64,000 nucleotides of DNA from an uncultured Clostridium sp. (GCA_947073285.1 CAMTJT010000004.1:7525-71524), one strand, 5' to 3'; positions 6,543-47,934 are shown, counted from the stretch's first letter. Program-made: numbers and translations. Notes: a model not told the origin generated them from the sequence alone.

Positions 6543-9500
6543 CTACGATACTGTCCATTTCTTGATTTTTCTAATTCCGTCTACATATTTTTCTGTATTT
6601 TCTTTTGAGAAACCTCTTCTTTCTAGTGCTTCTCTTGTTATCTTTAAGTCTCTCTTGCTTTCTACATCAGATGCTAAACTTGCAAGTAGTAATTTCTCAT
6701 CTGTTACATATCCTGAACCAAATTTACCATCATCAGCTTTCATAGCTTTTGTAATAACTTTATCATCTGTAATTCCTAATTCTCTATATTTCATAGCATC
6801 TCTTCTCATGATTTGTTGTGCTTCTTTTGCAGATACTCCTAATTTATCTTGATAGTATTTTCTCTTTTCTCTATCTCTTACAAATCTAGCATCTGCTTGT
6901 GCATTTTGTCTTGCTTCGATTTCATCTTCTGTATGAGTTGCTGCATATTGTGCTTCTATAGCATCATCTATTCTAGAAGAAATACCTTTTGTTCCTTCTA
7001 ATGAACGGGTAATTCCTGTTCCTGCTGCTAAACCTGCACCAGCACCTCCTAATGCCCATTTTCCAAAGTTTGAAAAATCATCTGATACTAATGCTGCTGT
7101 ACCTCCTGCTATTGCTCCTGCTCCTATTAATGTACCTTTGACTGCTGCTTTTCCAATTGCTTTTCCTGCTCTTGGTGCTACATAAGCAATACCATTTCCA
7201 AGTGATTTTGCACCTTTAGCAACATAACCTTTTGCAGTTTGTGCATGTTTTGCTAAACTAATACCAGTATTACTTGCTGCTCTTCTAAATGCTGCACTAG
7301 TATTATTTCTATAGGCGTTATATATTCCTTGTTTTGCTTTTCCTACACCTTTATCAATTTGCCCTGCTGTCCAATCTTTTGCTGCACCTAGTCCCTTAGC
7401 AGTGTAACGGATTGGTGCTGTAGCTATACCTCCTGCTGTTTTAGCAAATCCTCCAATTGCTCTAACTCCTCTTTGTGCTTTGCTACCATCATATTTATTT
7501 TTTGCCCAGTTTGCAAAATAGCCACCTAAACCTTGGTTATATCCTGCTTCATCTGGATATTGTTCTCCTACCATATCAAAAATTTCATCTTCGTCAAATC
7601 CCGCATTTCTTAAAGACTCTGCATATTCCTCTGGTGACATACCTTGTTGTGAATTCTGTTGATTTTGTGCTCTTTCTAATGCCTCTCTTTGTGCATTATC
7701 TATTTCATCGTTTTCTATGTCTGCTTCTAGCATTCTTCTTTGCATGTCTTCTGCATTAGCTGGTGGCTCTGGAGGTGTATTTTCTTCATTGTTTCCTCCG
7801 CTTCTACCACTTAAGTCTGGTCCTCCATCTGGTCCTCCTCTTGAGCCTCCATTTGAATTGTTGTTAGAGCCACCATCGTTACCACCCTCTGGTGCACCTC
7901 CACCAACTCTATCAAATAAGTCATCTGAGTTTTTCCCCTTATCTGCTGTTCTATTACTAGATGGTAATTTCTTATTATCTTCTTTACCACCTCTTTGATT
8001 TTTGCCACCTCTTCCAAGCATTTTTCCTAGGGCATTAACTCCTTGCATTGCTAAAGCTCCACCTAAAGCTGAGCCTCCTGCAACAGTTGATGCTTTGTCA
8101 AATCCAAAGAATTTACGTAGTAGCTTTTCTGCTTGTAAAATAAATCCTAAAGCAACTAAACCATAAATAAGGTTATCCATTACTAAATCTAATGCTGTTC
8201 CCATTAATACAGTATAAATTACTAAATGTACTGGTTGAATTAGTAAGTTATAGATATATTCTTTTAACCATGTATTAAAGCCTTGTGCACTACCATCTTT
8301 GATTTTATCAAGTGGATAAGTCATTGCCATTAATGGTGCAATAATGGTTAAGAAAGTAAGCATCATTAATCTTTTTAAATAGCGGAATAAGAACAGTACT
8401 GTATATATAACTAATGCTAAATAGATAATTGTGTAACCAAATTGTCTCATTAATACATCATCATCAGACATTGCCTGTGGTTCTAATTGGAGTTCTATTC
8501 TTGCTTTTCCCATCATATTAGATGGCCATACTAATAGTTTATCTCCTGTTTCTGTATCATCTATAATAGCACCTGCCTTCATCATCGCTTCAGAAATACT
8601 ACCTGAATCACCTGAAAAGACTTTACTTCCATCATCAAATTCATATTCGTTTAAGTCTCTACTATCTCCTTCTCCTTCATTTCCAACAGATCCACCAGAA
8701 GAACCAATAATAATTCCATATTCATCATTCATTGGCACAATGGCTTTTGTAATTTCTTCTGTAATAGTAACTGCAAATGCCATAATATAGTGCATGAAAA
8801 ATAGTAAACACATAGCAACTAGCCAATCTAGTAAACGTTGTTTGTATTTTGCTTTATCTTCTGCACTACTACTAATTAAAATTCTAATTCCTACATAGAC
8901 TAGAATAGATAGTAAAGCTACAATTGCTAAGTTTCTAAGTGCATAATACCATGTAGATACAATTGGTTGAAGAGTAAGAGCACTTGATTTTTGTTCTACT
9001 GCTTGCCCATCTATTGTTGTAGTATCTTCGTATTTATTGGGGTTAAAAAAGTTAACATCTAATAAAGCAACTTTGTTTTTAAAGATTTCTTCTGGACTAA
9101 TTGCAAATACTGGCATCTGCAATTTTTCTGGTAAAGCTTTGGACGAAAGATAGGTTGCTGCCATTCCTGTACCAATAGATACTGTAGCTGTTACTAGTAT
9201 TAGTTTAATACCTGCTACTACTGCTGCTAAACTAACTCCTCCTGAAAATGGAGCTCCTGCTAAACCTATTGCAATTGCTACCGCTCCACCTATAACTCCT
9301 GCCAGTGTTCCGAATGACTGCTGGTAACCAATCTTTATCATACCTTATTGTTACAAATGAAGCATCCATTCCAAACAAAATAGATTGCACCAGTGTGATA
9401 ATTCCATCTGCAACAACTAATAATAAATCTTTAATTGGTTCAAATAGAATTCCTCCTGCTGTTGAAGCTGCTGATGCTGCTAAGGAGAGATTGGGTGATA

Positions 9501-38392: not shown

Positions 38393-39382
38393 TTAATTAT
38401 TAATCTCTTTTTCTATAAGATAATTATTATATACAAATAGTAAATTTCCTATATAAGCGTTTTCTCTATATATTTTTCTAATAGCAATATTTTTTATACT
38501 TTTAAATGGTCTATAAATTCCATAATATTCATTGTTAACCAGAGTACTATTTTCATATGGGCATATCCCAAATAAATATTCATATATTTTCTTTACTTCT
38601 TCCATTGTTAAATTTTTTGTTTTATTAATTTCAATAGAAGGTATAATGTAATTTATTCCTAAATCAATACTCCCCAAGTCATCATAGTAGGATGCGTATT
38701 TGCTATTACCTTTTAAGTAACAAGGAATATTTCCTCCTTTTTCATCAATGAATTTATAATAATTTAGTTCTTCTTCATTTAACCTTAATATTGATGTATT
38801 ATCACTGTATGAAAATATTTCAAAGTTCTGCAGTGCATTAAACCAAATATCTAATACTGCAGCAGATTCTTTCTCGAAACTACGGTTTTTTATAATATTA
38901 TCACAATATTCATTTGTAATTTGAAAATAGTCAGTTATTTTATATAAGTATTTAATGCAATCTGCTTTTGTTATATATGCTTCATTTTTATCAAGTGTGT
39001 ATAGCCTATATAATGTTTTGCAAATAACTATAAATGGCTTTATGGGATATGAACTTTCTTTGTCATAATTTACTTTAGTTAAATTTTCAAAAATTAATTC
39101 TTCATATTTTAATTGATCATTAAGATAGAATTGTATATTTTTCCCTAATTTATTTTCCTTATTTATTATTCCAATATTTCTTGTAGTTGTTAACAAAGCA
39201 TTTGGATTCCCTGATTTTTTCATTTTTTGAGGAAATGTTTCTATTAATTCACTTGATGTTATTTTTGATAAGTAAGAATATGTATTTACTATATTGATTA
39301 TTGTATTAAACAATTCTTTTCCCTCATCTGTAAAAAAATTTTTTCCTCTATCTAAATACCAAATATTACTATTATCACTCAT
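38393..39382 (-). CDS. Uncharacterised 329-aa protein translationally coupled to Dcm (candidate restriction endonuclease or specificity partner)
   Basis: Its start overlaps the dcm stop (ATGA, 39379-39382). No nuclease motif could be assigned by eye. Confidence 0.5.
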   Translation of the reverse strand: MSDNSNIWYLDRGKNFFTDEGKELFNTIINIVNTYSYLSKITSSELIETFPQKMKKSGNPNALLTTTRNIGIINKENKLGKNIQFYLNDQLKYEELIFENLTKVNYDKESSYPIKPFIVICKTLYRLYTLDKNEAYITKADCIKYLYKITDYFQITNEYCDNIIKNRSFEKESAAVLDIWFNALQNFEIFSYSDNTSILRLNEEELNYYKFIDEKGGNIPCYLKGNSKYASYYDDLGSIDLGINYIIPSIEINKTKNLTMEEVKKIYEYLFGICPYENSTLVNNEYYGIYRPFKSIKNIAIRKIYRENAYIGNLLFVYNNYLIEKEINN

Positions 39383-40482
39383 TTATTTGTATCCTTTTTA
39401 TCATCAAAATTTATTGACTCCATAATTGATTTTGTAATTTCCTTTAATACAGGAACTGCTATAGAATTTCCAGATTGTCTATATGCAACTGTATCTGGTA
39501 CTACTACTTTAAAATCTTTAAATCCCATAAGCTTTAAACATTCATTGGGAGTCATTTTTCTTGCCACTGCATCTTGTCCATTATAATTTCCTACAAATAT
39601 TCTTTCATCTTTATAAAAATTCTCTTTTGGTGTTTCTACTCTAAAGTCTCCTATCCAATTAAACTGTTGATTAGCTGTTTGACATCCTATTATATCTCTA
39701 TTAACTCTTGCCCTTCCTTCATTTCTTTCAGGTGTTGTTACATATATAAATCCTTTTTCTCCTAAGTAATATTTGTCATCTACTTCTGTGTCTAAAAAGT
39801 CTGATGCTTTATCTTGCAAATCTACTCTTTTAGGAAATTCAAATTCTCTTTTATATTCAATGTCATTATTTATTCCAACAACAAAAACTCTTTTTCTCAT
39901 TTGTGGCAACCCATAATACTGTGCATCCATTACTTTAAATTTTATATGATAATTTAAACTTTCAAATACATCTTTTATAACACGCCACGTTTTCCCCTCA
40001 TCATGATTTAATAACCCTGTAACATTTTCAAAGATAAATGCCTTTGGTTGAATTTCTTTAATTAACCTTGCATAATCATAGAATAGAGTTCCTCTTGTGT
40101 CTTCTAATCCTCCTCTTTTACCATATGTTGAAAAACTTTGACATGGACTACCTCCAACAAGTAAATCAACTTCACCTTTAAATTTTTTCCCATCTAAAAA
40201 TCTAATGTCTTCATACCATCTGTCTTCTGTAATATCATAATTTGCAAAATAAGATTTTTTTACATTATTTTCTTTTCCTGTAGCATCATAAATTTCTCTT
40301 ATTTTCTTTTCCTTTTCTTTTTCTGATAATCCTTCTATCTGTCTTTTTATACTTTCTTGATCTATATCTAAGTATCTTTCTCCATTATCACATGCAAATA
40401 CTATTTCATATTCTATATTCATTTGTTTTAATGCTTGTTCTATTGCCCCAATTCCACTAAAAACTGTTGCTAATTTTATCAT
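39379..40482 (-). CDS. dcm: DNA (cytosine-5)-methyltransferase
   Basis: Motif I FSGIGAIE, motif IV GGSPCQSFS, motif VI FIFENVTGL, motif VIII QMRKRVFVVG, motif X GNSIAVPVL. Confidence 0.95.
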   Translation of the reverse strand: MIKLATVFSGIGAIEQALKQMNIEYEIVFACDNGERYLDIDQESIKRQIEGLSEKEKEKKIREIYDATGKENNVKKSYFANYDITEDRWYEDIRFLDGKKFKGEVDLLVGGSPCQSFSTYGKRGGLEDTRGTLFYDYARLIKEIQPKAFIFENVTGLLNHDEGKTWRVIKDVFESLNYHIKFKVMDAQYYGLPQMRKRVFVVGINNDIEYKREFEFPKRVDLQDKASDFLDTEVDDKYYLGEKGFIYVTTPERNEGRARVNRDIIGCQTANQQFNWIGDFRVETPKENFYKDERIFVGNYNGQDAVARKMTPNECLKLMGFKDFKVVVPDTVAYRQSGNSIAVPVLKEITKSIMESINFDDKKDTNK

Positions 40483-40587
40483 TACTGTATTTCTCCTTTT
40501 AAAAACTCATTTTATACTTTCTTATTTAATATCATTTATTTTTTTCCTTAATTTATGCACTCTATTCTTTCTTTAAAAAGTTTTAGT

Positions 40588-41292
40588 TTAGGATTTTCTA
40601 AGTTTATTTAGCTCTACTCCACTTTCTATAAATAGTTCTTCTACATATTTTTCTAATCCTCCATTTACTAAATATGGATCTATTACTTGAAGTTTCATTG
40701 TATTTAATGTCATTATCCTTCTAAATTGATCTCTATCTGTTACATTATATAAAAATTTCTTATATAAAATTTCATTAAACAGATCTTTTCTATAACCATA
40801 TGTACCTGTTCTATCAATTATATTTAATATGGTATCTGTAGTGTTATCTTTTAAAATTTTCTTGGTTGTTTTTTCATCATCTTTCCATGCTAGATATATA
40901 TACCACCATAATGTCTCTAACCACATTCTTCTTGGCTTTTTATAATATCTATCTTCACTTATTTCATATCTATATTTTATAATTTCAGGACAAACTTTTA
41001 ATTGTATATATCTCCAAATGTCATCATCACCTGCTTCGTTTTCACTTATTTGATATTTAAAGGTTAATAGCTTATATAATTTTATTCCAAATATATAGTC
41101 TACATCATATGCTTTATTCTTTATGTCACTTACTCCTATCTCAAGTTCTTTTAATGTTTGATGGAATTCATTTAAAACATCTTTCCTTAACTCATCATAA
41201 CTTTCATCACAACTTGGATTAAAATTATTATTTTTATTCATTTCTTCAAAGCATTTTTTTGATTTTACTTTGTTTAATTTTAACCAATCCAT
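40588..41292 (-). CDS. Uncharacterised 234-aa protein of the Z1/GHKL operon
   Basis: ORF in the operon. W-rich core DDDIWRYIQLKVCPEIIKYRY...KPRRMWLETLWWYIYLAW. No motif assigned. Confidence 0.55.
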   Translation of the reverse strand: MDWLKLNKVKSKKCFEEMNKNNNFNPSCDESYDELRKDVLNEFHQTLKELEIGVSDIKNKAYDVDYIFGIKLYKLLTFKYQISENEAGDDDIWRYIQLKVCPEIIKYRYEISEDRYYKKPRRMWLETLWWYIYLAWKDDEKTTKKILKDNTTDTILNIIDRTGTYGYRKDLFNEILYKKFLYNVTDRDQFRRIMTLNTMKLQVIDPYLVNGGLEKYVEELFIESGVELNKLRKS

Positions 41293-41301
41293 TTTTTCTC
41301 C

Positions 41302-42231
41302 TTAATCAATTATACTATCTATTGCTGTTTTTATTGAAAATAAAATTTCTTTAAATTCATTTACTCTAATATCAAAAAAGTTAATCCAATACTTTGCAAC
41401 ATTTCCTATTATTTGATCTTCTTCATAATCACTATTGCAGATATTTTCCAGGTTTTCTTTGCTAATAACATCTGCTATAAATAAAGCTATAAATTCAGAA
41501 ATAATTTCTTTCATTAATGGTGTTACTGTAGTCCCTTCAGCATTCAAATTTTTAAAATCTTTATGTGCTTTATTTAGATATAAGCAGATATTATCTTCTT
41601 CAAATAAATCTTCGTTGACATCCATATAATTAAATTCTGCATACCATAAAGATTTATTTTTATCATCAATTACTTTTATAGGAAATATTGAGCCTTTTCC
41701 TTCTAAAAATATTTCTAGTTCTTGATATGCTCCTAATACAGTTCCACTATTATTAGCATACATATCATTTTCGTATGATTTATCTACATATAATATTATT
41801 TTAATTCCTAATTTATCAGCTAACTCTCCTTTGTTAAAATTTAAATTAATACAAAAGTCTTGCTTAGTTTTTTCCTCATTATAGGCTATTTCAGTGATTT
41901 TTTTACTTATATTTTTATTAGTTTTCCTGCAATAATAATTTGTGGCAATTCCCAAAATGGAATTTTTATTAGCTACCCCAATTTCTTCATTGAATAGCAA
42001 ATTTTTATCTTGTATAGTACAATCAATATTAATATTCAAGTTGTCTTTTAATGGCGTCCATGTACCATATTCATCATCTAGAAAATATTGATTCTTTTCA
42101 ATTGGTGTTAATTCTAAATCTCTAGTTATATTATCTTTTATGTAATTAATTTTTATTTCATTAATCTTAAATCCACTTTTTTCTATTAAATTATTAGTTA
42201 AAGTTGGAAAACTTTCTAGTATATTACTCAT
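41302..42231 (-). CDS. Uncharacterised 309-aa protein of the Z1/GHKL operon (possible PD-(D/E)xK nuclease)
   Basis: Overlaps the GHKL gene end by 8 nt. Candidate D...E-x-K elements IILYVDKS ... ELEIFLEGKG. The assignment is weak. Confidence 0.5.
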   Translation of the reverse strand: MSNILESFPTLTNNLIEKSGFKINEIKINYIKDNITRDLELTPIEKNQYFLDDEYGTWTPLKDNLNINIDCTIQDKNLLFNEEIGVANKNSILGIATNYYCRKTNKNISKKITEIAYNEEKTKQDFCINLNFNKGELADKLGIKIILYVDKSYENDMYANNSGTVLGAYQELEIFLEGKGSIFPIKVIDDKNKSLWYAEFNYMDVNEDLFEEDNICLYLNKAHKDFKNLNAEGTTVTPLMKEIISEFIALFIADVISKENLENICNSDYEEDQIIGNVAKYWINFFDIRVNEFKEILFSIKTAIDSIID

Positions 42232-44308
42232 TACCTATCTCCTCTTTTACTCTAGATAAGATTCCTTTATAATTTCTATTATTATATTTATAACACAATC
42301 TGCCTCTAATTTTTTTTAATTGACTACCTTGCTTTAATTTAATGCTCCATCCAATCCAACTTTTTAATTTTTCAGTATATCTTTTTTCCAAAATTATATT
42401 TTCATCTTCATACTTATTAATATACTTGTTTATCTTTTTATTTATGTAATACTGTATTTGTTCACCTTCACCATATGTTAATAACTCAATTTTTATTAAT
42501 TCAACTGGAAATTCTTTATTTTCAAAATCTTCTTCCCATTTTTTTCCTGTCATTTTAAAGTCTTCAGCTACTATTTCAAATTCATATTCTATGTTTCTAT
42601 CATTTGAATTAAGATTAATTTCAAAGTCTTTACTTATAGTTTTATCTATATTATTTCTAATTATTGATTCATCAATGAAATTTAAATTTGATTTTGAATT
42701 TCTTCTTAGAAATTTGTTTGCATTTATTTCTTTTTTATTTTCATTTTCATTAAATGATGATGGTCTTTTTCCAAATCCTATTGGTGGCAATAATCTATTT
42801 GTTAAAGTCCTACTTAATCTTGTATCAACACTTCTAGTTATTTTATAGTCTATATCTTCATAGCAATTGTTAATTTTACTTTTTATTTGATTTTGAACTC
42901 TTTTAATTATAGTATAATTGGATAAATCTATCCAGTCTGCATGATCTGCTTTTTCACATGCTCTTAGATATTTTTCAAAACTTTTCTTTTCATCATCTTC
43001 TTTTACTTTTATTAGATTGCTTGAGTTGGCTATAAATAATCCAATTATGTAGTTGCCATCATTTACTTTTATACTATTTGACCAACTTTCTCCAACATCA
43101 TATTTTAATAGCATACCTGGTCTTCTACAAAATGTGATTATAGAATATCCATCATCTTTTTCATTATATTTTGTATTAAAAATTTGTAAATATGGACTTG
43201 GCTCATTATATGGTTGATTCATTTTTAGGTCATCTTTATTCATTTTTATATATGCAATTTTTCCTGCTTCTGTTTCATTTAAAAATGTATTTAATAATTT
43301 TATATTTTCTACCTTTATACTATTATCTTTTATACTTCCTGTACCTGCATTATAAAGCTCTTGTATTTTCTTAAATAATGGTAAAAAGTCTTCTTCTGGA
43401 TGAAAATATTTATTATTTATTTTCAATTTTAAGTATGGGTTATCTTTAAAATATGGATTCATTAATCTTGGTGCATACCATCTTTGTACTGAAACTTTTA
43501 TATATTTATCTACACTTTCATTCCATGGCAAAGCATTGTCTTCTTTATTAGCATCATTTAATAATTTCTTTTCGTCTATAAATGGGATTATAACTTTAGT
43601 TCCTGTACTTTCTCCTTCAAAAGCTTTTAATTGAAAAATTTCTAATATTTGCTTTATTTCTTCTTCATCTGTTAAAGGGTTTAGTTGATCAATTTCATTA
43701 TTTTTCTTTCCAAACCACATAATTCCTGTTTTAGGTCTGCTTTCATTATTATAACTTGGTATAATTGTATTTTCTTCATTTTCAACTAATGATATAACCA
43801 TTCTAGATTCATAGTTATCATAATTTTTAATTCTTGAATAGAATATTACCAGTCCAATCCCTACTCTATAATATACTGTTTTACCATATCCCCAAGATCC
43901 TCCTGAATTTTCTATAGTTTGAGCTTTTCCAATATTAAAGATTAGATTTATAAATTTTCCATAATTATTATTTATAACTTCACTCATATTCTTTGGTCCA
44001 GTTAGACCTGTTGTATTTGTATCACTAAAACTTATAAATGTATCCAAATTTTCATCTTTATGTTTTTCTAATAGCTTACTTCCAAAAGGTTCAATACTAT
44101 TGGCTAATTTCTTTTCATCAAACTTTGAAATATTTATCTCTACATCAACACTAGCACTAGTATCTAACTTTGCATCAAGTGAATTTTGTATTGCTTCTCT
44201 TGTTAATAAATCTAAAATTGGTATGTCATTATTTTGAATAGCTCTTAATAATGAACTTCCTGATATTCCCATATATTCATTTCTTAAAATCTCATAATCA
44301 AATTTCAT
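42224..44308 (-). CDS. GHKL-superfamily (MutL/MORC-like, HATPase_c) ATPase
   Basis: 694 aa. Bergerat N-box REAIQNSLDA near the N-terminus and a glycine-rich lid GGSWGYGKTVYY. Confidence 0.75.
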   Translation of the reverse strand: MKFDYEILRNEYMGISGSSLLRAIQNNDIPILDLLTREAIQNSLDAKLDTSASVDVEINISKFDEKKLANSIEPFGSKLLEKHKDENLDTFISFSDTNTTGLTGPKNMSEVINNNYGKFINLIFNIGKAQTIENSGGSWGYGKTVYYRVGIGLVIFYSRIKNYDNYESRMVISLVENEENTIIPSYNNESRPKTGIMWFGKKNNEIDQLNPLTDEEEIKQILEIFQLKAFEGESTGTKVIIPFIDEKKLLNDANKEDNALPWNESVDKYIKVSVQRWYAPRLMNPYFKDNPYLKLKINNKYFHPEEDFLPLFKKIQELYNAGTGSIKDNSIKVENIKLLNTFLNETEAGKIAYIKMNKDDLKMNQPYNEPSPYLQIFNTKYNEKDDGYSIITFCRRPGMLLKYDVGESWSNSIKVNDGNYIIGLFIANSSNLIKVKEDDEKKSFEKYLRACEKADHADWIDLSNYTIIKRVQNQIKSKINNCYEDIDYKITRSVDTRLSRTLTNRLLPPIGFGKRPSSFNENENKKEINANKFLRRNSKSNLNFIDESIIRNNIDKTISKDFEINLNSNDRNIEYEFEIVAEDFKMTGKKWEEDFENKEFPVELIKIELLTYGEGEQIQYYINKKINKYINKYEDENIILEKRYTEKLKSWIGWSIKLKQGSQLKKIRGRLCYKYNNRNYKGILSRVKEEIGNE

Positions 44309-47066
44309 TAAAATCCTCTCCCATTTCTTGGGTCCATATAACTCTATTTCTATTTTCTTTATTGGTGTTAGGTATGTATATATATAGTCCTAATATGTCT
44401 GTTTCAAAATTTAAAGCTGTTCTTGTTGGATTTCCTTCTTTATCATTACTCATTCTTTGAACAGTTGAGTCTTTATCTATAAAATATAAAAATAATTTCG
44501 GTTTTTCTACATTTTCTAATGTTCCTTCATAGCCTTTTTCATATAAACATGCATTTTCTCTATCTTTAGGATTCCTTAAAATACCTATATCTATTGTATT
44601 TTCTAAATGTTTTACTCTTCGTGAACGATTTACTTTATTAATGTTTATCCCTTCTGCAATTTTTATTTTCTCCTTTTTACTATTTTCTTCTGTATTATCA
44701 CTTCCAATAATAATATCCCAATTATTTAGTTTTTCATCATTTTTTTGTTCACTCATCCATTTATAAAAGTCATTGATATTTCCAAAAAATCTATCGTGCT
44801 TATAATACTTTAATTGTTTAAATAGATTATCTTCCACTTCTTTATATTTGATATTATTAAATACAAAACTGTCTTTTATTATTTTGTATTTATTTTGACT
44901 AAATAACTTTTTTATAAATTCTACGCCTTTTTCTTTGTTTTCTTTTTGAATTATTGGGTTGCTATCAAATACAACTGTTTGATTATCAACTTTTTCGTAT
45001 GTCGCACCTACTCTTAATGCATTTTGTGACTTATTTTTCGATGTTAATAAAAATCTTGTTAAATATGAACTTTGTATTTTTGGTGCATACTCAGAAGGTT
45101 TAGTGCCTAAGTCATATTTTTTCAAATCTCCCCTTAGTCTATTTTCTATGTATGATACTTCTTTGAATTTTGCTTCTGCTTCTTTAGTTAACCATATTCT
45201 GGGTAATAATTCATATCCTATTCTATATCCAAACCATCTGCCCATCTGCATTAGCGTGTCTGCTTGAGCCACTTTTCTTGAAAAATATGATGATGTCAAT
45301 CCATCTAATGTTAACCCTCTAGCTAATGTATTTCCTCCAATTACGATTAACCCACTAGCAACATCTACATCTCCTTTTTCTGGATATGCTAATCTAATGA
45401 AGTTACCACTTTCATCTATTCCCCTTTTATTGTTAGAATTATCTATGACGATATGTATTCCTTTATGGAACTTTAGATCTCCTTTTTCAGTAATTGTAAT
45501 ATGAGAAATTTCAACTTCTAAAATAGATATTATCTCATTTTTAATGTCATCAAATTTTGGATAGTCATTTACTGGATGCAATCCATCAAAATTGTAATTG
45601 CTCATTATACGTAAAAATCCTTCTTTTGATAGTTTTCTTTTTTCTATATCATATATTTTCTCACATTCATCTAATAATTTATTTTTATTCATATTTAGCC
45701 ATTTTTCAACAGCATCTGCTGTATTTTTGTGAACTCCAGTATTTGTATTAGTGTGAATAAGCATACTTACTGGTTTCAAAGATTTTCTATATCTTTGCAC
45801 AGCTAATGTACAGATGAACCAGCAAATTGAATTTTTTAAAGATTCTGGAAAATCTAGATTATCGACACTTAAATTTTCCATTTTTTTATAGTCGTTTTCA
45901 CTTATTTCTTCTAATATAGGCAGAGAATCTATTATATCATCTTCATTTCCAAATATTTCTCCTGCACCAATATATTGACTAGATTTTGGCAATGATATTA
46001 TAAAATCTTTTGGATACAAACTTTCTTCACTGTTTTCATTTAAAAAATTTCCATATGGAGTTGCAGTATAGCTAATGTAGTTGGTAGAATGAAATTTTTT
46101 ACAATTTACAAGTTCTAATATTAATTTATTTATTTTCGTTCTTTCTATTTCTTCTTTCATTTTCCTTGTATTTAAACTTGCTTGATCTGCCTCATCATCA
46201 ATAATAACAATATTCATTTTGGCTTTGGTTGCAGCAGATGTGTAATCTATTAACCATTTGTTTAGATTTTTCAATCTTGTAGAGTTTTTTAAACATACAG
46301 TTACTACTCTTGCTTTTTCATTTTGTAAATATCCATCTAGCTTTACACCTTTTATATTGTCAAAGAATTTCCATTGAATATTTGAATTTGGCGAAAATTC
46401 GATATCTGCTTGTAATCTATTTAAATTTTGTCTTCTTAAATTTTCTATCGTTCCCGATAGCATAATAAAAATATTATATCCATAATCAGCTCCCATTGTT
46501 ATTACAGATTCAATATTAGTAGTCTTTCCTGATTGAACATATCCCATTACGAGTCCTTTGCCTGATTCCTCATTTTGGGAGTCTCTTTTCAAACATTCTA
46601 GTATTCTTTTAGCACTACTCTCAGAATTTACTATTGTTTCCATTCCTGGAAATTTTTTCATGAGCATTTCTTTAAATACCATCCATGCAGAATTTGGATT
46701 TGTAGGCACTGTTATGGTTTGTCTTATGTTTCCAGTATCATATAAATATCCTGTTGATTTTTCCACTCTTTCATCTATACTTTTTCTATAATCAACAAGC
46801 TGATCCCATTTTTCTTTATAGTCTTTTGGAAATCCATATATTTCCCATATTTCTTCAAATTTATTTTTATACTTTTTTATTTCTTCCCATTCAATATTTT
46901 CATTCTTTTTCTTTATCTTGTCTATTTCCTCTAAACAACTTTCATATTCTGGTTCCCAATTATACTCTATCATTATACTACTCCATAAATATATTTTCCT
47001 ATTACATTTTATATCATAAATCGACTTTTCTCTCAATAAATATAGAGAATTTTTCTTACTTTGCAA
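44298..47066 (-). CDS. Z1-domain superfamily-2 helicase-like ATPase
   Basis: 922-aa ORF. Walker A GYVQSGKTTN, DEAD-like VIIDDEADQAS, then a Z1-type C-terminal region. An alternative start, ATG 46973 (MIEYNWEPEYE), has a GGAG 7 nt upstream. Confidence 0.75.
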   Translation of the reverse strand: MQSKKNSLYLLREKSIYDIKCNRKIYLWSSIMIEYNWEPEYESCLEEIDKIKKKNENIEWEEIKKYKNKFEEIWEIYGFPKDYKEKWDQLVDYRKSIDERVEKSTGYLYDTGNIRQTITVPTNPNSAWMVFKEMLMKKFPGMETIVNSESSAKRILECLKRDSQNEESGKGLVMGYVQSGKTTNIESVITMGADYGYNIFIMLSGTIENLRRQNLNRLQADIEFSPNSNIQWKFFDNIKGVKLDGYLQNEKARVVTVCLKNSTRLKNLNKWLIDYTSAATKAKMNIVIIDDEADQASLNTRKMKEEIERTKINKLILELVNCKKFHSTNYISYTATPYGNFLNENSEESLYPKDFIISLPKSSQYIGAGEIFGNEDDIIDSLPILEEISENDYKKMENLSVDNLDFPESLKNSICWFICTLAVQRYRKSLKPVSMLIHTNTNTGVHKNTADAVEKWLNMNKNKLLDECEKIYDIEKRKLSKEGFLRIMSNYNFDGLHPVNDYPKFDDIKNEIISILEVEISHITITEKGDLKFHKGIHIVIDNSNNKRGIDESGNFIRLAYPEKGDVDVASGLIVIGGNTLARGLTLDGLTSSYFSRKVAQADTLMQMGRWFGYRIGYELLPRIWLTKEAEAKFKEVSYIENRLRGDLKKYDLGTKPSEYAPKIQSSYLTRFLLTSKNKSQNALRVGATYEKVDNQTVVFDSNPIIQKENKEKGVEFIKKLFSQNKYKIIKDSFVFNNIKYKEVEDNLFKQLKYYKHDRFFGNINDFYKWMSEQKNDEKLNNWDIIIGSDNTEENSKKEKIKIAEGININKVNRSRRVKHLENTIDIGILRNPKDRENACLYEKGYEGTLENVEKPKLFLYFIDKDSTVQRMSNDKEGNPTRTALNFETDILGLYIYIPNTNKENRNRVIWTQEMGEDFNEI

Positions 47067-47685
47067 TTTTCTCCTTCTATTTTAAGTTAAATAATTCTAT
47101 GGGATTAACTTTGAATTTCAACATATTAGCTAGTTTCTCTACTTTCATCTCTACTTTTTCTTTGCATTGTAATTCTTCCTATTTTTTGAAAATTCATTTA
47201 TACATTTTTTTATTTTATCTTTAGTACCTCTTTATATGGTGCTAATTCTCCTGCATATATTGCAATAGTTTCACTATTTTTCTAGTATTTCCTATTTATT
47301 TGCGTAATTTTTAATTATCTATTGACTTTTTATAGTTAGTCACCTCTATTAATTTGTCTCATTATATCATTATTCTTTTTATTTTTCACCAATTTTGTAA
47401 TATAAATTACTTTCTCCTTAATTTTTGTCTAAACTCCCTACTCTCTGCTAAATTAGTGCTTTTTACTTTGCTTGTTAGGGTAAGACTTAAATTTATGTCC
47501 TTCGGGTTATGAGCGTGTAAGTGTTGGTATTGCTGATATTTGTGTTACTTTGTTATGTGTTGTTAGAGTAAGTTTGTCGCTTAAATGAGTGATACTTTGT
47601 TTGTGTTAAATTGTGTGTAAAATTGGCTAATTTTGTAGGAAGTGTGACCAAGATGTGACATGGAAACCGTAGAAAAAAACACATA

Positions 47686-47934
47686 TTACTGTGCTTCTTC
47701 ATCATTAATTTCTTTAACCTGCTCTAAATATTTATCTATAAATTCCTTATATTTATTACATATATTCTTTTTTTCTTGATCCATTTCTTCATTAATTTCT
47801 AATTTCATTTCTGTATTAATATTAGGATTAGTTAAGTATATTATTAACTCCCTATATTCTTCGTTGTTTAATATTCTATATTCCCTTTCTTCTAATTGTA
47901 AAATTATCTCTCCTTCTTCATTTTCTCTAAACAT
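47686..47934 (-). CDS. Small highly acidic 82-aa protein, translationally coupled to the PHP-ATPase
   Basis: TAATG stop/start overlap at 47936-47932. E/N-rich sequence with no motif. Confidence 0.5.
   Translation of the reverse strand: MFRENEEGEIILQLEEREYRILNNEEYRELIIYLTNPNINTEMKLEINEEMDQEKKNICNKYKEFIDKYLEQVKEINDEEAQ

What the first reader, a model, noticed from the sequence alone, without database searches (positions are those of the whole stretch)
38393..47066. Six-gene Z1-helicase / GHKL-ATPase / Dcm operon with non-canonical partner genes
Six co-directional genes with overlaps or tiny gaps: Z1 SF2-like ATPase (922 aa), GHKL/MutL-MORC-like ATPase (694 aa), a 309-aa protein, a 234-aa protein, a C5 cytosine methyltransferase, and a 329-aa protein coupled to it by ATGA. 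Established knowledge: GHKL plus Z1 modules linked to cytosine methylases were predicted by comparative genomics to be methylation-dependent restriction-type systems, and from memory they correspond to the Mza-type defence system. As I recall, the commonly described relatives carry Vsr and AIPR/PD-(D/E)xK components. Here I recognise neither Vsr nor an AIPR-like protein. Three partners (309, 234 and 329 aa) have no motif I can assign, apart from a weak D...EGK in the 309-aa protein. This may be an undescribed variant architecture.
Basis: partly seen in the sequence, partly recalled or inferred. Interest (0 to 1): 0.7.

Follow-up and report, generated by a model that had tools for sequence, protein, structure and literature searches.

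The report
Nuclease-deleted Z1/paraMORC restriction-like operon
The six genes are real, but they are a known, untested kind of seven-gene restriction-like defence operon whose DNA-cutting gene was deleted, and the six remaining genes are still kept intact by natural selection.

Summary
The six co-directional genes exist on the minus strand, 38393-47066. They are a Z1 SF2 ATPase, a GHKL ATPase with the paraMORC2 signature, a 309-aa protein, a DUF6339 protein (234 aa), a C5 methyltransferase and a 329-aa protein.

This is not a new Mza variant. Z1-paraMORC-309aa-DUF6339 is a fixed core in 60 related loci. In 58 of them it is joined to a nuclease (DUF4420 PD-(D/E)XK or PLD/NgoFVII), and usually to Dcm. 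This architecture was predicted by Iyer 2008 and by Miller 2022 ("Type I") and has never been tested.

All eight nearest lineages carry DUF4420 between DUF6339 and Dcm. The window has an approximately 0.8-kb deletion there, with remnants of both gene ends. A second deletion removed an adjacent Mrr-like nuclease.

The deletion is shared by a sister sub-lineage seen in many samples. Since those two lineages split, the six genes show dN/dS 0.16, so they are not decaying.

The 329-aa protein is restricted to one clade and has a confidently predicted fold with no structural match. It sits where Vsr sits in other relatives.

Verdict: a naturally disarmed but maintained variant of a known predicted system. 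Interest is moderate.

The parts
44298..46973 (-). Z1-domain SF2 ATPase/helicase, 891 aa from the conserved ATG. The longest ORF extends to a TTG at 47066 (922 aa).
   Evidence: Pfam Z1 at 2e-52. PADLOC MzaC at 1e-44 (partial) and 'Type II helicase domain protein' at 3.5e-36. Motifs, counted from the ATG at 46973: Walker A GYVQSGKT at residue 144, DEAD at 260, TATP at 303, and the Z1 motif DTLMQMGRWFG at 572. The last matches the 'DThhQXuRhFG' signature of Iyer 2008. Relatives start at the ATG.
42224..44308 (-). GHKL-type ATPase of the paraMORC2 kind, 694 aa
   Evidence: Invariant in 44 homologues: E38xxxN42xxD45A46, D96...G101L102xG104, G136G137xxG140xG142K143, T235G236T237, and E452xxxH456. 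ExxxH is the paraMORC2 signature (PMC2292703). hhalign against E. coli MutL aligns only the N-box, probability 2.8%. No Pfam or PDB sequence hit. PADLOC PDC-M33A at 7e-11. The family is large: 418 cluster representatives at E<=1e-30.
41302..42231 (-). 309-aa core protein of unknown function; probably a non-catalytic adaptor
   Evidence: Present in 60/60 complete related loci directly after the GHKL gene. AF2 pLDDT 83: N-terminal beta-sandwich plus a C-terminal helical bundle. Foldseek gives only weak generic beta-sandwich matches (Wzt CBD, RhoGDI; query TM 0.2-0.28). Residues conserved in at least 90% of sequences are all structural (W, G, F, P, L, Y, N). No Pfam, PADLOC or NCBIfam hit.
40588..41292 (-). 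DUF6339 protein, 234 aa; core component
   Evidence: PF19866 (DUF6339) is on record for this exact protein and for all 18 homologue clusters. The local hmmscan gives DUF6339 for only 3 of 15 members (best 7.7e-5) and no hit for the window protein itself. Present in 58/60 related loci.
40483..40607 (-). Deletion scar of the DUF4420 (PD-(D/E)XK) nuclease gene. The 5' remnant has the start codon changed from ATG to ATA and carries indels. About 41 nt of the 3' end remain, followed by the Dcm ribosome-binding region.
   Evidence: The window lacks L001 positions 7140-7968, and the equivalent stretch in L002 and L003. That gene is DUF4420 in L001 and L003 (E about 1e-25). Against shuffles, the 3' remnant is matched in 0/2000 and the 5' remnant in 65/2000. 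The same junction is seen in L012, L013 and L100-L105, from other samples.
39379..40482 (-). C5 cytosine DNA methyltransferase, 367 aa
   Evidence: Pfam DNA_methylase at 6e-71. TIGR00675 dcm at 2.5e-71. Motifs FSGIG (8), PCQSFS (113), ENV (152), QMRKR (194) and GNSI (338) are intact. dN/dS is 0 since the deletion.
38393..39382 (-). 329-aa clade-specific accessory protein, overlapping Dcm by ATGA. All-alpha, rich in winged-helix-like elements, with no match to a known fold.
   Evidence: Only 26 homologue clusters were found. Three of them carry a C-terminal Topo-I-type zinc ribbon. AF2 pLDDT 89, pTM 0.89. No Foldseek match below E 0.65 in PDB or 0.9 in BFVD; only local winged-helix similarities. 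Always the last gene of the seven-gene operon. Vsr is present in 0/10 loci that have this protein and in 31/50 that lack it. dN/dS 0.04 since the deletion.
38275..38365 (-). Scar of a second deleted gene, an Mrr-like type IV restriction endonuclease: about 60 nt of its 3' end (38306-38365), followed by a hairpin shared with the convergent gene (38275-38306).
   Evidence: L001 10244-10978 encodes Mrr_N + Mrr_cat (1.5e-28) and PADLOC mREase_IV. L001 and L002 have about 0.8-0.9 kb here that the window lacks. The remnant alignment includes the last codons and the stop. Coordinates.

Best explanation
The locus belongs to a widespread restriction-modification-like defence family that has been predicted by computation but never tested.

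**Family architecture.** A fixed four-gene core is joined to a nuclease and one or more C5 methyltransferases. The core is a Z1 SF2 ATPase, a paraMORC2 GHKL ATPase, a ~310-aa beta-sandwich protein and DUF6339. The nuclease is either DUF4420 (PD-(D/E)XK) or a PLD/NgoFVII-type enzyme. The window's clade has a seven-gene form: core, DUF4420, Dcm, and a 329-aa protein.

**How the intact system probably works (inferred by analogy).** Dcm marks the host's own DNA. The nuclease acts on unmarked DNA and depends on ATP hydrolysis by the Z1 motor, as shown for CglI/NgoAVII. The GHKL protein may act as an ATP-driven clamp or looping factor, as Iyer 2008 proposed.

**What happened here (shown).** An approximately 0.8-kb deletion removed DUF4420. 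A second deletion removed a neighbouring Mrr-like nuclease. The operon therefore encodes no recognisable nuclease.

**What it does now.** It can still methylate, and both ATPases keep intact motifs. The deletion is shared by two sub-lineages found in many samples. Since they split, all six genes have stayed full length under purifying selection. The six-gene form is therefore a maintained, disarmed derivative and not a dead relic.

Most likely Dcm and the 329-aa protein continue as a methylation-linked pair. The ATPase core either works with an effector encoded elsewhere or has a role that does not need cleavage. This last step is inference.
For: **Identity and family**
- Pfam Z1 and Dcm. GHKL and ExxxH motifs. 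DUF6339.
- In 60 non-redundant related loci the counts are: p309 in 60, DUF6339 in 58, Z1 in 59, Dcm in 56, and a nuclease in 58 (DUF4420 in 52, NgoFVII in 9).
- Literature: Iyer 2008, PMC2292703; Puigbo 2017, PMC5379612; Miller 2022 'Type I', with components of 925, 704, 298 (DUF4420), 231 (DUF6339) and 310 aa plus a cytosine methyltransferase.

**Deletion**
- DUF4420 lies between DUF6339 and Dcm in L001, L002, L003, L009, L015, L018, L019, L021, L022 and a GCA_016648615 contig.
- Scar alignments. The Mrr scar.
- No DUF4420, Mrr, Vsr or NgoFVII homologue elsewhere in the 64 kb.
- The same junction appears in independent assemblies.

**Maintenance**
- Window against L100, both carrying the deletion: 98.95% identity over 10.6 kb, 37 synonymous and 27 nonsynonymous codon changes, omega 0.16, binomial p = 4e-12 against neutrality.
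- The scar itself differs by 1 substitution and 1 indel in 105 nt, so it is as old as the split.

**Analogy**
- Z1 N-proteins hydrolyse ATP only together with their R-protein, and cleavage needs both (PMC4267653).
- The Z1 protein hits PADLOC 'Type II helicase domain protein' at 3.5e-36.
- Relatives with RE_NgoFVII in place of DUF4420.
Against: - No member of this family has been tested, so the restriction mechanism is inferred by analogy.
- The GHKL assignment rests on motifs only. Every profile search against Pfam and PDB failed, and hhalign against MutL gave 2.8% probability.
- Purifying selection after the deletion shows retained function but not which function.
- A nuclease could be encoded elsewhere in the genome. 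Only 64 kb was available.
- A cryptic nuclease activity in the 329-aa protein, DUF6339 or the Z1 C-terminal domain cannot be excluded from sequence or fold alone.
- The divergence used for the post-deletion dN/dS is small (dS 0.025, 64 changed codons).
Confidence: 0.7

Rival explanations
1. Still a working restriction system. The 329-aa protein, or another retained component, supplies the nuclease or effector activity, so DUF4420 became dispensable in this clade.
For: - All six genes are under purifying selection after the deletion, and p329 is among the most constrained (omega 0.04).
- p329 has many invariant polar residues: D11, R12, K14, N15, E95, E99, D107, K108, K115, D178, R302.
- Some homologues carry a DNA-binding zinc ribbon.
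- The DUF4420 loss seen here lies inside the p329-bearing clade.
Against: - The p329 model is all-alpha with winged-helix-like elements and has no structural match to any nuclease.
- No PD-(D/E)XK, HNH, PLD or GIY-YIG signature was seen in p329, p309, DUF6339 or the Z1 C-terminal region.
- The nine other p329-bearing lineages all keep DUF4420, which argues that the two are not redundant.
Confidence: 0.15
2. A dead relic. Restriction was lost, Dcm persists as an orphan methylase, and the other genes are simply too young to show decay.
For: - R-M systems commonly decay by losing the nuclease first (general knowledge).
- Two nuclease genes were lost independently.
- Only 2 of 60 related loci lack a nuclease, so the nuclease is normally essential to the system.
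Against: - Post-deletion dN/dS is 0.16 overall. For the four core genes alone there are 29 synonymous and 26 nonsynonymous changes, where about 81% nonsynonymous is expected under neutrality.
- All six genes have the same lengths in both deletion-bearing sub-lineages.
- The scar remnants are 67-76% identical to intact genes, against 80-99% among the intact genes themselves. The loss is therefore not very recent.
Confidence: 0.1
3. A variant of the Mza (MzaABCDE) defence system.
For: - The Z1 protein hits PADLOC MzaC at 1e-44 and NCBIfam MzaC at 4e-62.
- DUF4420 proteins of relatives hit MzaD weakly, at 2e-4 and 4e-7.
- Miller 2022 notes about 20% identity between its AIPR-containing Type II and MzaBCDE.
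Against: - NCBIfam MzaC scores 210 bits against a 1500-bit cutoff.
- No MzaB hit for the GHKL protein or for any of 44 relatives.
- No AIPR (MzaE) and no MzaA in or near the operon.
- Mza has no methyltransferase in the descriptions read here, whereas this family is built around Dcm.
Confidence: 0.03
4. Two unrelated modules: a plain type II R-M pair (Dcm + the 329-aa protein as endonuclease) that happens to sit next to an ATPase module.
For: - The ATGA coupling of Dcm and p329.
- Type II endonucleases are often orphan sequences with no family hits.
Against: - In all 10 lineages p329 occurs only as the last gene of the Z1 operon, never as a free-standing Dcm + p329 pair.
- Its fold is not nuclease-like.
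- Dcm is an integral part of the family in 56/60 loci, with or without p329.
Confidence: 0.04

Closest known systems
Miller et al. 2022 'Type I' candidate defence system (Nat Commun, PMC9523054, Supplementary Table 11)
   Same: It has a Z1 protein (925 aa, against 891/922 here), a MORC-like protein (704 against 694), DUF6339 (231 against 234), an unannotated protein (310 against 309) and a cytosine methyltransferase. The family has a broad taxonomic spread.
   Different: Its DUF4420 PD-(D/E)XK core gene (298 aa) is deleted in the window. The window's clade has an extra 329-aa gene after Dcm that is not in that description.
Iyer, Abhiman and Aravind 2008: the third operon type, in which paraMORC families stand in for MORC (distinct SFII helicase + novel restriction endonuclease + DCM, often with Vsr) (PMC2292703)
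   Same: The helicase has the DThhQXuRhFG C-terminal domain, which is Z1. The GHKL protein has the ExxxH motif of paraMORC2, a family said to occur in Gram-positive bacteria. It is associated with Dcm.
   Different: The 'NRE' endonuclease is absent here and Vsr is absent. The 309-aa and DUF6339 core proteins and the 329-aa protein are not mentioned in the passages of that paper read here.
CglI / NgoAVII ATP-dependent type II R-M (M + R + N proteins; PMC4267653)
   Same: It combines a C5 methyltransferase with a DEAD-Z1-C 'N' ATPase. Nine relatives of the window operon carry an RE_NgoFVII/PLD nuclease in place of DUF4420. It is the only Z1 system with biochemistry.
   Different: It has three genes only, with no GHKL, 309-aa, DUF6339 or 329-aa partners. 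Its R protein (PLD + B3) has no counterpart in the window.
Mza (MzaABCDE) anti-phage system
   Same: It has a Z1-domain protein (MzaC) and a nuclease (MzaD) that is weakly similar to the DUF4420 of relatives. Defence has been validated experimentally (bioRxiv 10.1101/2022.06.16.496414).
   Different: The window fails the MzaC equivalog cutoff. It has no MzaB-like hit, no AIPR (MzaE) and no MzaA. The window system is methylase-linked.

Membership tests
Z1-paraMORC2-DUF6339-DUF4420-Dcm predicted R-M-like system (Iyer 2008 / Miller 2022 Type I) | SF2 helicase with a Z1 domain (DThhQXuRhFG motif) | tested here: met
   Pfam Z1 at 2e-52. DTLMQMGRWFG, Walker A and DEAD are intact. Motif definition.
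Z1-paraMORC2-DUF6339-DUF4420-Dcm predicted R-M-like system (Iyer 2008 / Miller 2022 Type I) | GHKL ATPase of the MORC/paraMORC kind; paraMORC2 is marked by an ExxxH motif | tested here: inconclusive
   All four GHKL motifs and E452xxxH456 are invariant in 44 homologues. No profile-level support: Pfam and PDB give nothing, and hhalign against MutL aligns only the N-box at 2.8% probability.
Z1-paraMORC2-DUF6339-DUF4420-Dcm predicted R-M-like system (Iyer 2008 / Miller 2022 Type I) | DUF6339 protein of about 231 aa | tested here: met
   PF19866 is on record for the exact window protein and for all 18 homologue clusters. The local hmmscan is weaker: 3 of 15 members, best 7.7e-5, and no hit for the window protein itself.
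Z1-paraMORC2-DUF6339-DUF4420-Dcm predicted R-M-like system (Iyer 2008 / Miller 2022 Type I) | Unannotated protein of about 310 aa between the GHKL and DUF6339 genes | tested here: met
   A homologue is present at that position in 60/60 complete related loci. Equivalence with Miller's cluster is inferred from size and position only.
Z1-paraMORC2-DUF6339-DUF4420-Dcm predicted R-M-like system (Iyer 2008 / Miller 2022 Type I) | PD-(D/E)XK nuclease DUF4420 ('NRE'), listed as a core gene | tested here: not met
   The gene is deleted and only a scar remains at 40483-40607. No homologue elsewhere in the window. It is present in all nearest relatives.
Z1-paraMORC2-DUF6339-DUF4420-Dcm predicted R-M-like system (Iyer 2008 / Miller 2022 Type I) | C5 cytosine methyltransferase | tested here: met
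   PF00145 at 6e-71 and TIGR00675 at 2.5e-71. Catalytic motifs are intact.
Mza (MzaABCDE) | MzaC, a Z1 protein at equivalog level | tested here: not met
   NCBIfam NF041933 scores 210 bits against a cutoff of 1500. The PADLOC MzaC match is partial.
Mza (MzaABCDE) | MzaB partner protein | tested here: not met
   No MzaB hit at E<=0.1 for the window protein, nor at E<=0.01 for 44 family members.
Mza (MzaABCDE) | MzaE (AIPR) and MzaA | tested here: not met
   No AIPR or sigma/HTH family in the six proteins or their neighbours. The ORFs upstream of Z1 have no hits.
Mza (MzaABCDE) | MzaD nuclease | tested here: not met
   Only the DUF4420 proteins of relatives hit MzaD, and weakly (2e-4 and 4e-7). 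The window has no such gene.
CglI/NgoAVII-type ATP-dependent type II R-M | N protein: DEAD-Z1-C ATPase | tested here: met
   PADLOC 'Type II helicase domain protein' at 3.5e-36. Domain description from PMC4267653.
CglI/NgoAVII-type ATP-dependent type II R-M | R protein: PLD nuclease + B3-like DNA-binding domain | tested here: not met
   No significant RE_NgoFVII or PLD homologue in the window; the best hit has E 0.017, at an unrelated place. Present in 9 of 60 relatives.
Plain type II R-M (Dcm + 329-aa endonuclease) | The partner protein has a nuclease fold or motif and occurs as a two-gene module | tested here: not met
   A confident AF2 model (pLDDT 89) has no nuclease match. p329 is found only inside the Z1 operon. 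Catalytic activity itself cannot be tested with these tools.

The most novel reading that the evidence does not exclude
The Z1-paraMORC2 core has a selectable function that does not need its canonical nuclease. The orphan-fold 329-aa protein is coupled to Dcm and occupies the position where Vsr sits in other relatives. It may be a new kind of methylation-linked DNA-transaction protein. One possibility is a functional analogue of Vsr that repairs T:G mismatches arising from 5mC deamination. Another is a new DNA-recognition or effector subunit that allowed the clade to lose DUF4420.
Probability: 0.25. Interest if true: 0.75.

Novelty: new variant of a known kind. Interest (0 to 1): 0.5.

Why it matters
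This family is large. The GHKL partner alone has 418 cluster representatives (one per 50%-identity cluster) at E<=1e-30. It has been predicted three times as a defence system and has never been tested.

The window offers a natural experiment: a clade in which the predicted nuclease, and a neighbouring Mrr-like nuclease, were deleted. The two ATPases, two unknown core proteins, the methylase and a clade-specific protein nevertheless stay under purifying selection.

If that holds, the ATPase core does something useful without its own nuclease. That would change how such paraMORC/Z1 systems are modelled.

The 329-aa protein is also a concrete candidate for a new activity linked to 5-methylcytosine. 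Its predicted fold is confident and has no match.

For annotation, the result shows that a 'novel six-gene architecture' can be a deletion derivative. Comparison with near relatives is needed before a variant is called.

Tried and rejected
- **Near-identical DNA in public phages or plasmids:** none found.
- **Sequence or profile links from the 694-aa protein to HATPase_c or to PDB GHKL proteins:** none found, using the single sequence, a 6-sequence profile and a 44-sequence profile. hhalign against E. coli MutL aligned only the N-box. The GHKL call therefore rests on motifs.
rejected. The K of 'EGK' is not conserved, the fold is a beta-sandwich plus helices, and the conserved residues are structural.
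- **The 329-aa protein as a type II endonuclease:** no support from fold searches in PDB or BFVD.
- **A broken DUF6339 gene in locus L010, as a possible sign of decay:** it is a scaffold gap of Ns, not a frameshift.
- **Promoter and terminator scan:** uninformative in this AT-rich DNA, with 69 promoter-like sites against 75 expected.
- **Genome-collection scan with the single Z1 protein:** it returned only 3 close loci. The broader census came from the metagenome scan with the GHKL alignment.
- **Other recurrent accessory families among 258 unlabelled neighbours:** none is widespread.
- **First attempt at iterative HMM building:** it timed out and was rerun with faster settings.

Full report
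**1. Observation**

The six ORFs exist on the minus strand with the stated lengths. They are tightly packed: 11-nt and 8-nt overlaps, a 9-nt gap, a 105-nt gap, and an ATGA overlap.

- Pfam confirms the Z1 domain (2e-52) and the C5 methyltransferase (6e-71). The other four proteins have no Pfam, NCBIfam or PADLOC family, apart from a partial PDC-M33A hit for the 694-aa protein.
- The Z1 gene probably starts at the ATG at 46973 (891 aa), not at the TTG at 47066. Conservation and the ORFs of relatives begin there.
- The region has 22-27% G+C and lies in a defence or mobile island.

**2. The near relatives have seven genes**

A genome scan with the Z1 protein found three uncultured Clostridia MAG contigs that are 80-87% identical in DNA. 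All six window proteins have collinear orthologues there. Each relative also has an extra 298-aa gene between the 234-aa gene and Dcm.

That gene is DUF4420, a putative PD-(D/E)XK nuclease (E about 1e-25).

More distant homologues of the 309-, 234- and 329-aa proteins are few (20, 18 and 26 clusters). Their contigs show the same order: Z1, a ~695-aa protein, a ~310-aa protein, DUF6339, DUF4420, Dcm, and a 329-aa-like protein.

Two further relatives differ in the module that follows the core:
- Edaphobacillus has core-Dcm-DUF4420.
- Another contig has core-RE_NgoFVII(PLD)-Dcm-Vsr.

**3. The deletion**

DNA alignment shows that the window lacks L001 positions 7140-7968, and the equivalent stretch in L002 and L003. 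That stretch is almost the whole DUF4420 gene. The flanks align at 82-88%.

The 105-nt 'intergenic' gap is a scar:
- The 5' end of DUF4420 is recognisable, with ATG changed to ATA and with indels.
- The last ~41 nt of the gene are also recognisable.
- Against shuffled sequence, the 3' remnant is clearly significant (0/2000) and the 5' remnant weakly so (65/2000).
- The remnants are 67-76% identical to intact genes. Intact genes are 80-99% identical to each other over the same segments. The neighbouring DUF6339 gene shows no such excess divergence. The loss is therefore not very recent.

A second deletion removed an Mrr-like type IV endonuclease that follows the 329-aa gene in L001 and L002. 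About 60 nt of its 3' end remain.

No DUF4420, Mrr, Vsr or NgoFVII homologue occurs elsewhere in the 64 kb.

The junction is not an assembly artefact. It is present in contigs from other samples (L012, L013). It is also present in six contigs of a sister sub-lineage (L100-L105), whose DUF6339 protein is recorded on 19 contigs.

**4. Family census**

A metagenome scan with an alignment of 44 diverse homologues of the 694-aa protein returned 80 loci. I called ORFs and labelled them with HMMs built from the loci already in hand.

Among 60 non-redundant loci with at least 4.5 kb downstream of the GHKL gene:

| Component | Loci (of 60) |
|---|---|
| 309-aa family | 60 |
| DUF6339 | 58 |
| Z1 | 59 |
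| Dcm | 56 |
| Any nuclease | 58 |
| DUF4420 | 52 |
| PLD/NgoFVII | 9 |

- Only the window lineage and L098 lack a nuclease. L098 has an HTH protein in that position.
- The 329-aa protein is confined to one clade of 10 lineages.
- Vsr is present in 0 of those 10 and in 31 of the other 50. Fisher p = 2.7e-4, not corrected for phylogeny. This probably reflects a single evolutionary event.
- The 329-aa protein occupies the position just after Dcm where Vsr usually sits.

**5. What the proteins are**

*694-aa protein.* It keeps these motifs in the canonical GHKL order, invariant across 44 sequences of 29-46% identity:
- E38xxxN42xxD45A46
- D96...G101L102xG104
- G136G137xxG140xG142K143
- T235G236T237

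It also has E452xxxH456. Iyer et al. 2008 give ExxxH as the signature of paraMORC2. They describe operons that combine such GHKL proteins with an SFII helicase bearing a DThhQXuRhFG domain, a novel restriction-fold endonuclease, Dcm and Vsr. The window Z1 protein has DTLMQMGRWFG.

Profile searches did not confirm the GHKL fold. I therefore mark this feature as inconclusive at the profile level.

*309-aa protein.* It is modelled (pLDDT 83) as a beta-sandwich plus a helical bundle. Structural matches are only generic. Its conserved residues are purely structural. It is likely an adaptor.

*329-aa protein.* It is modelled confidently (pLDDT 89, pTM 0.89) as an all-alpha protein with winged-helix-like elements. 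It has no significant match in PDB or BFVD. Three homologue clusters add a Topo-I-type zinc ribbon.

None of the retained proteins shows a nuclease signature.

**6. Is the disarmed operon decaying?**

No.

- Against intact relatives, all six genes show dN/dS 0.06-0.22.
- The stronger test compares the window with L100. Both carry the deletion, and their scars differ by one substitution and one indel in 105 nt, about what the flanks predict. The scar is therefore as old as their split.
- Across the six genes there are 37 synonymous and 27 nonsynonymous codon changes, giving omega 0.16. Under neutrality about 81% of changes would be nonsynonymous (binomial p = 4e-12).
- All gene lengths are unchanged.

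| Gene | dN/dS since the deletion |
|---|---|
| Dcm | 0 |
| p329 | 0.04 |
| DUF6339 | 0.10 |
| GHKL | 0.14 |
| Z1 | 0.23 |
| p309 | 0.44 |

The remaining genes have been kept by selection after the nuclease was lost. The sample is small (64 changed codons).

**7. Mechanism**

*Shown:* the identities of Z1 and Dcm, the deletion, and the selective maintenance.

*Inferred by analogy:* in intact relatives Dcm protects host DNA. The nuclease (DUF4420 or PLD) attacks unmodified DNA with the help of the Z1 ATPase. In CglI/NgoAVII the Z1 'N' protein hydrolyses ATP only with its R protein on unmethylated sites, and cleavage needs both. The GHKL protein would act as an ATP-driven clamp or looping factor, which is the proposal of Iyer 2008.

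In the window, canonical cleavage is gone. My best reading is a disarmed but functional derivative. The rivals are an alternative effector (p329, or a nuclease in trans), a young relic, an Mza variant, and a plain type II pair. They are weighed in the rival explanations.

**8. Comparison with known systems**

- *Closest description:* the 'Type I' candidate of Miller et al. 2022. Its components are Z1 925 aa, MORC-like 704 aa, DUF4420 298 aa, DUF6339 231 aa, an unknown protein of 310 aa, and a cytosine methylase.
- *Earlier descriptions:* Iyer 2008 and an island noted by Puigbo et al. 2017.
- *Mza:* a distant relative only. The window fails the MzaC cutoff and has no MzaB, AIPR or MzaA. MzaD, the demonstrated Mza nuclease, is weakly similar to the DUF4420 of relatives.
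- *CglI/NgoAVII:* the only Z1 system with biochemistry.

**9. Verdict**

The architecture is a deletion derivative of a known, predicted system. It is not a new system.

Two things are new:
- A natural nuclease-less form that is maintained by selection.
- A clade-specific orphan-fold partner of Dcm, sitting in the position that Vsr occupies elsewhere.

Interest is moderate (0.5).

Noticed in passing
window 47934-50417 (-): An 827-aa protein with an N-terminal PHP domain (weak Pfam hit, 6.5e-5), a P-loop (GSRGSGKT) and a C-terminal match to the PADLOC 'Ppl' defence protein (1.8e-23). It is probably a second, independent defence gene directly upstream of the Z1 operon. An 82-aa ORF (47686-47934) is coupled to it by a start/stop overlap.
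   Followed up: partly
window 57130-63996: A type I R-M locus with two hsdS genes on opposite strands (57130-58308 minus strand, 59456-60664 plus strand). A tyrosine recombinase lies between them (58379-59365). hsdM (60698-62272) and hsdR (62287-63996) follow; hsdR reaches to within a few bases of the window end. The layout is that of a phase-variable (shufflon-type) specificity system.
   Followed up: no
window 33643-35179 (-): A ComM/YifB-type Mg-chelatase-like ATPase is split into two overlapping ORFs (231 aa and 303 aa), which suggests a frameshift. The same split is called in the independent contig L012, so it may be real and not a sequencing error.
   Followed up: partly
window 36743-38213 (+): A DUF6731 protein (350 aa, 5e-43) and a 134-aa protein converge on the operon. 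The pair travels with the Z1 operon in L001, L002, L012 and L100-L104. Function is unknown, and there is no PADLOC hit.
   Followed up: partly
window 51514-53721 (-) and 55769-56668 (+): A primase/helicase-like protein (CHC2 zinc finger, D5_N, DUF5906) and a tyrosine integrase. G+C drops from about 30% to 22-27% from about 35 kb onward. This suggests that the defence genes sit on an integrated mobile element.
   Followed up: no
window 46974-47685: About 700 nt upstream of the Z1 start contain no convincing ORF on either strand. Homology with relatives ends here, between about 46984 and 47088 depending on the relative. This is the likely promoter or regulatory region, or an island junction.
   Followed up: no
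L098 13835-14458: This is the only other related locus (of 60) without a recognisable nuclease. A 207-aa Xre-type HTH protein occupies the nuclease position, followed by Vsr and two Dcm genes. It may be a second, independent loss or replacement.
   Followed up: partly
L030, L034, L037, L042, L044, L048 (e.g. L042 17255-18010); L033, L048, L083, L085 (e.g. L033 17254-17661): There are sporadic accessory genes downstream of Dcm or Vsr in distant relatives. One is a ~250-aa protein with a C-terminal HNH-like motif. Another is a ~130-aa NUDIX (MutT-like) protein. Neither is widespread.
   Followed up: no
L018 10976-11674; window 36310-36627 (-): In L018 the gene after the 329-aa homologue combines Mrr_N with a MazG-like domain. 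The window and L003 carry a stand-alone MazG-like gene near the operon. This is a recurrent but unexplained association of MazG-like pyrophosphatases with this island.
   Followed up: no
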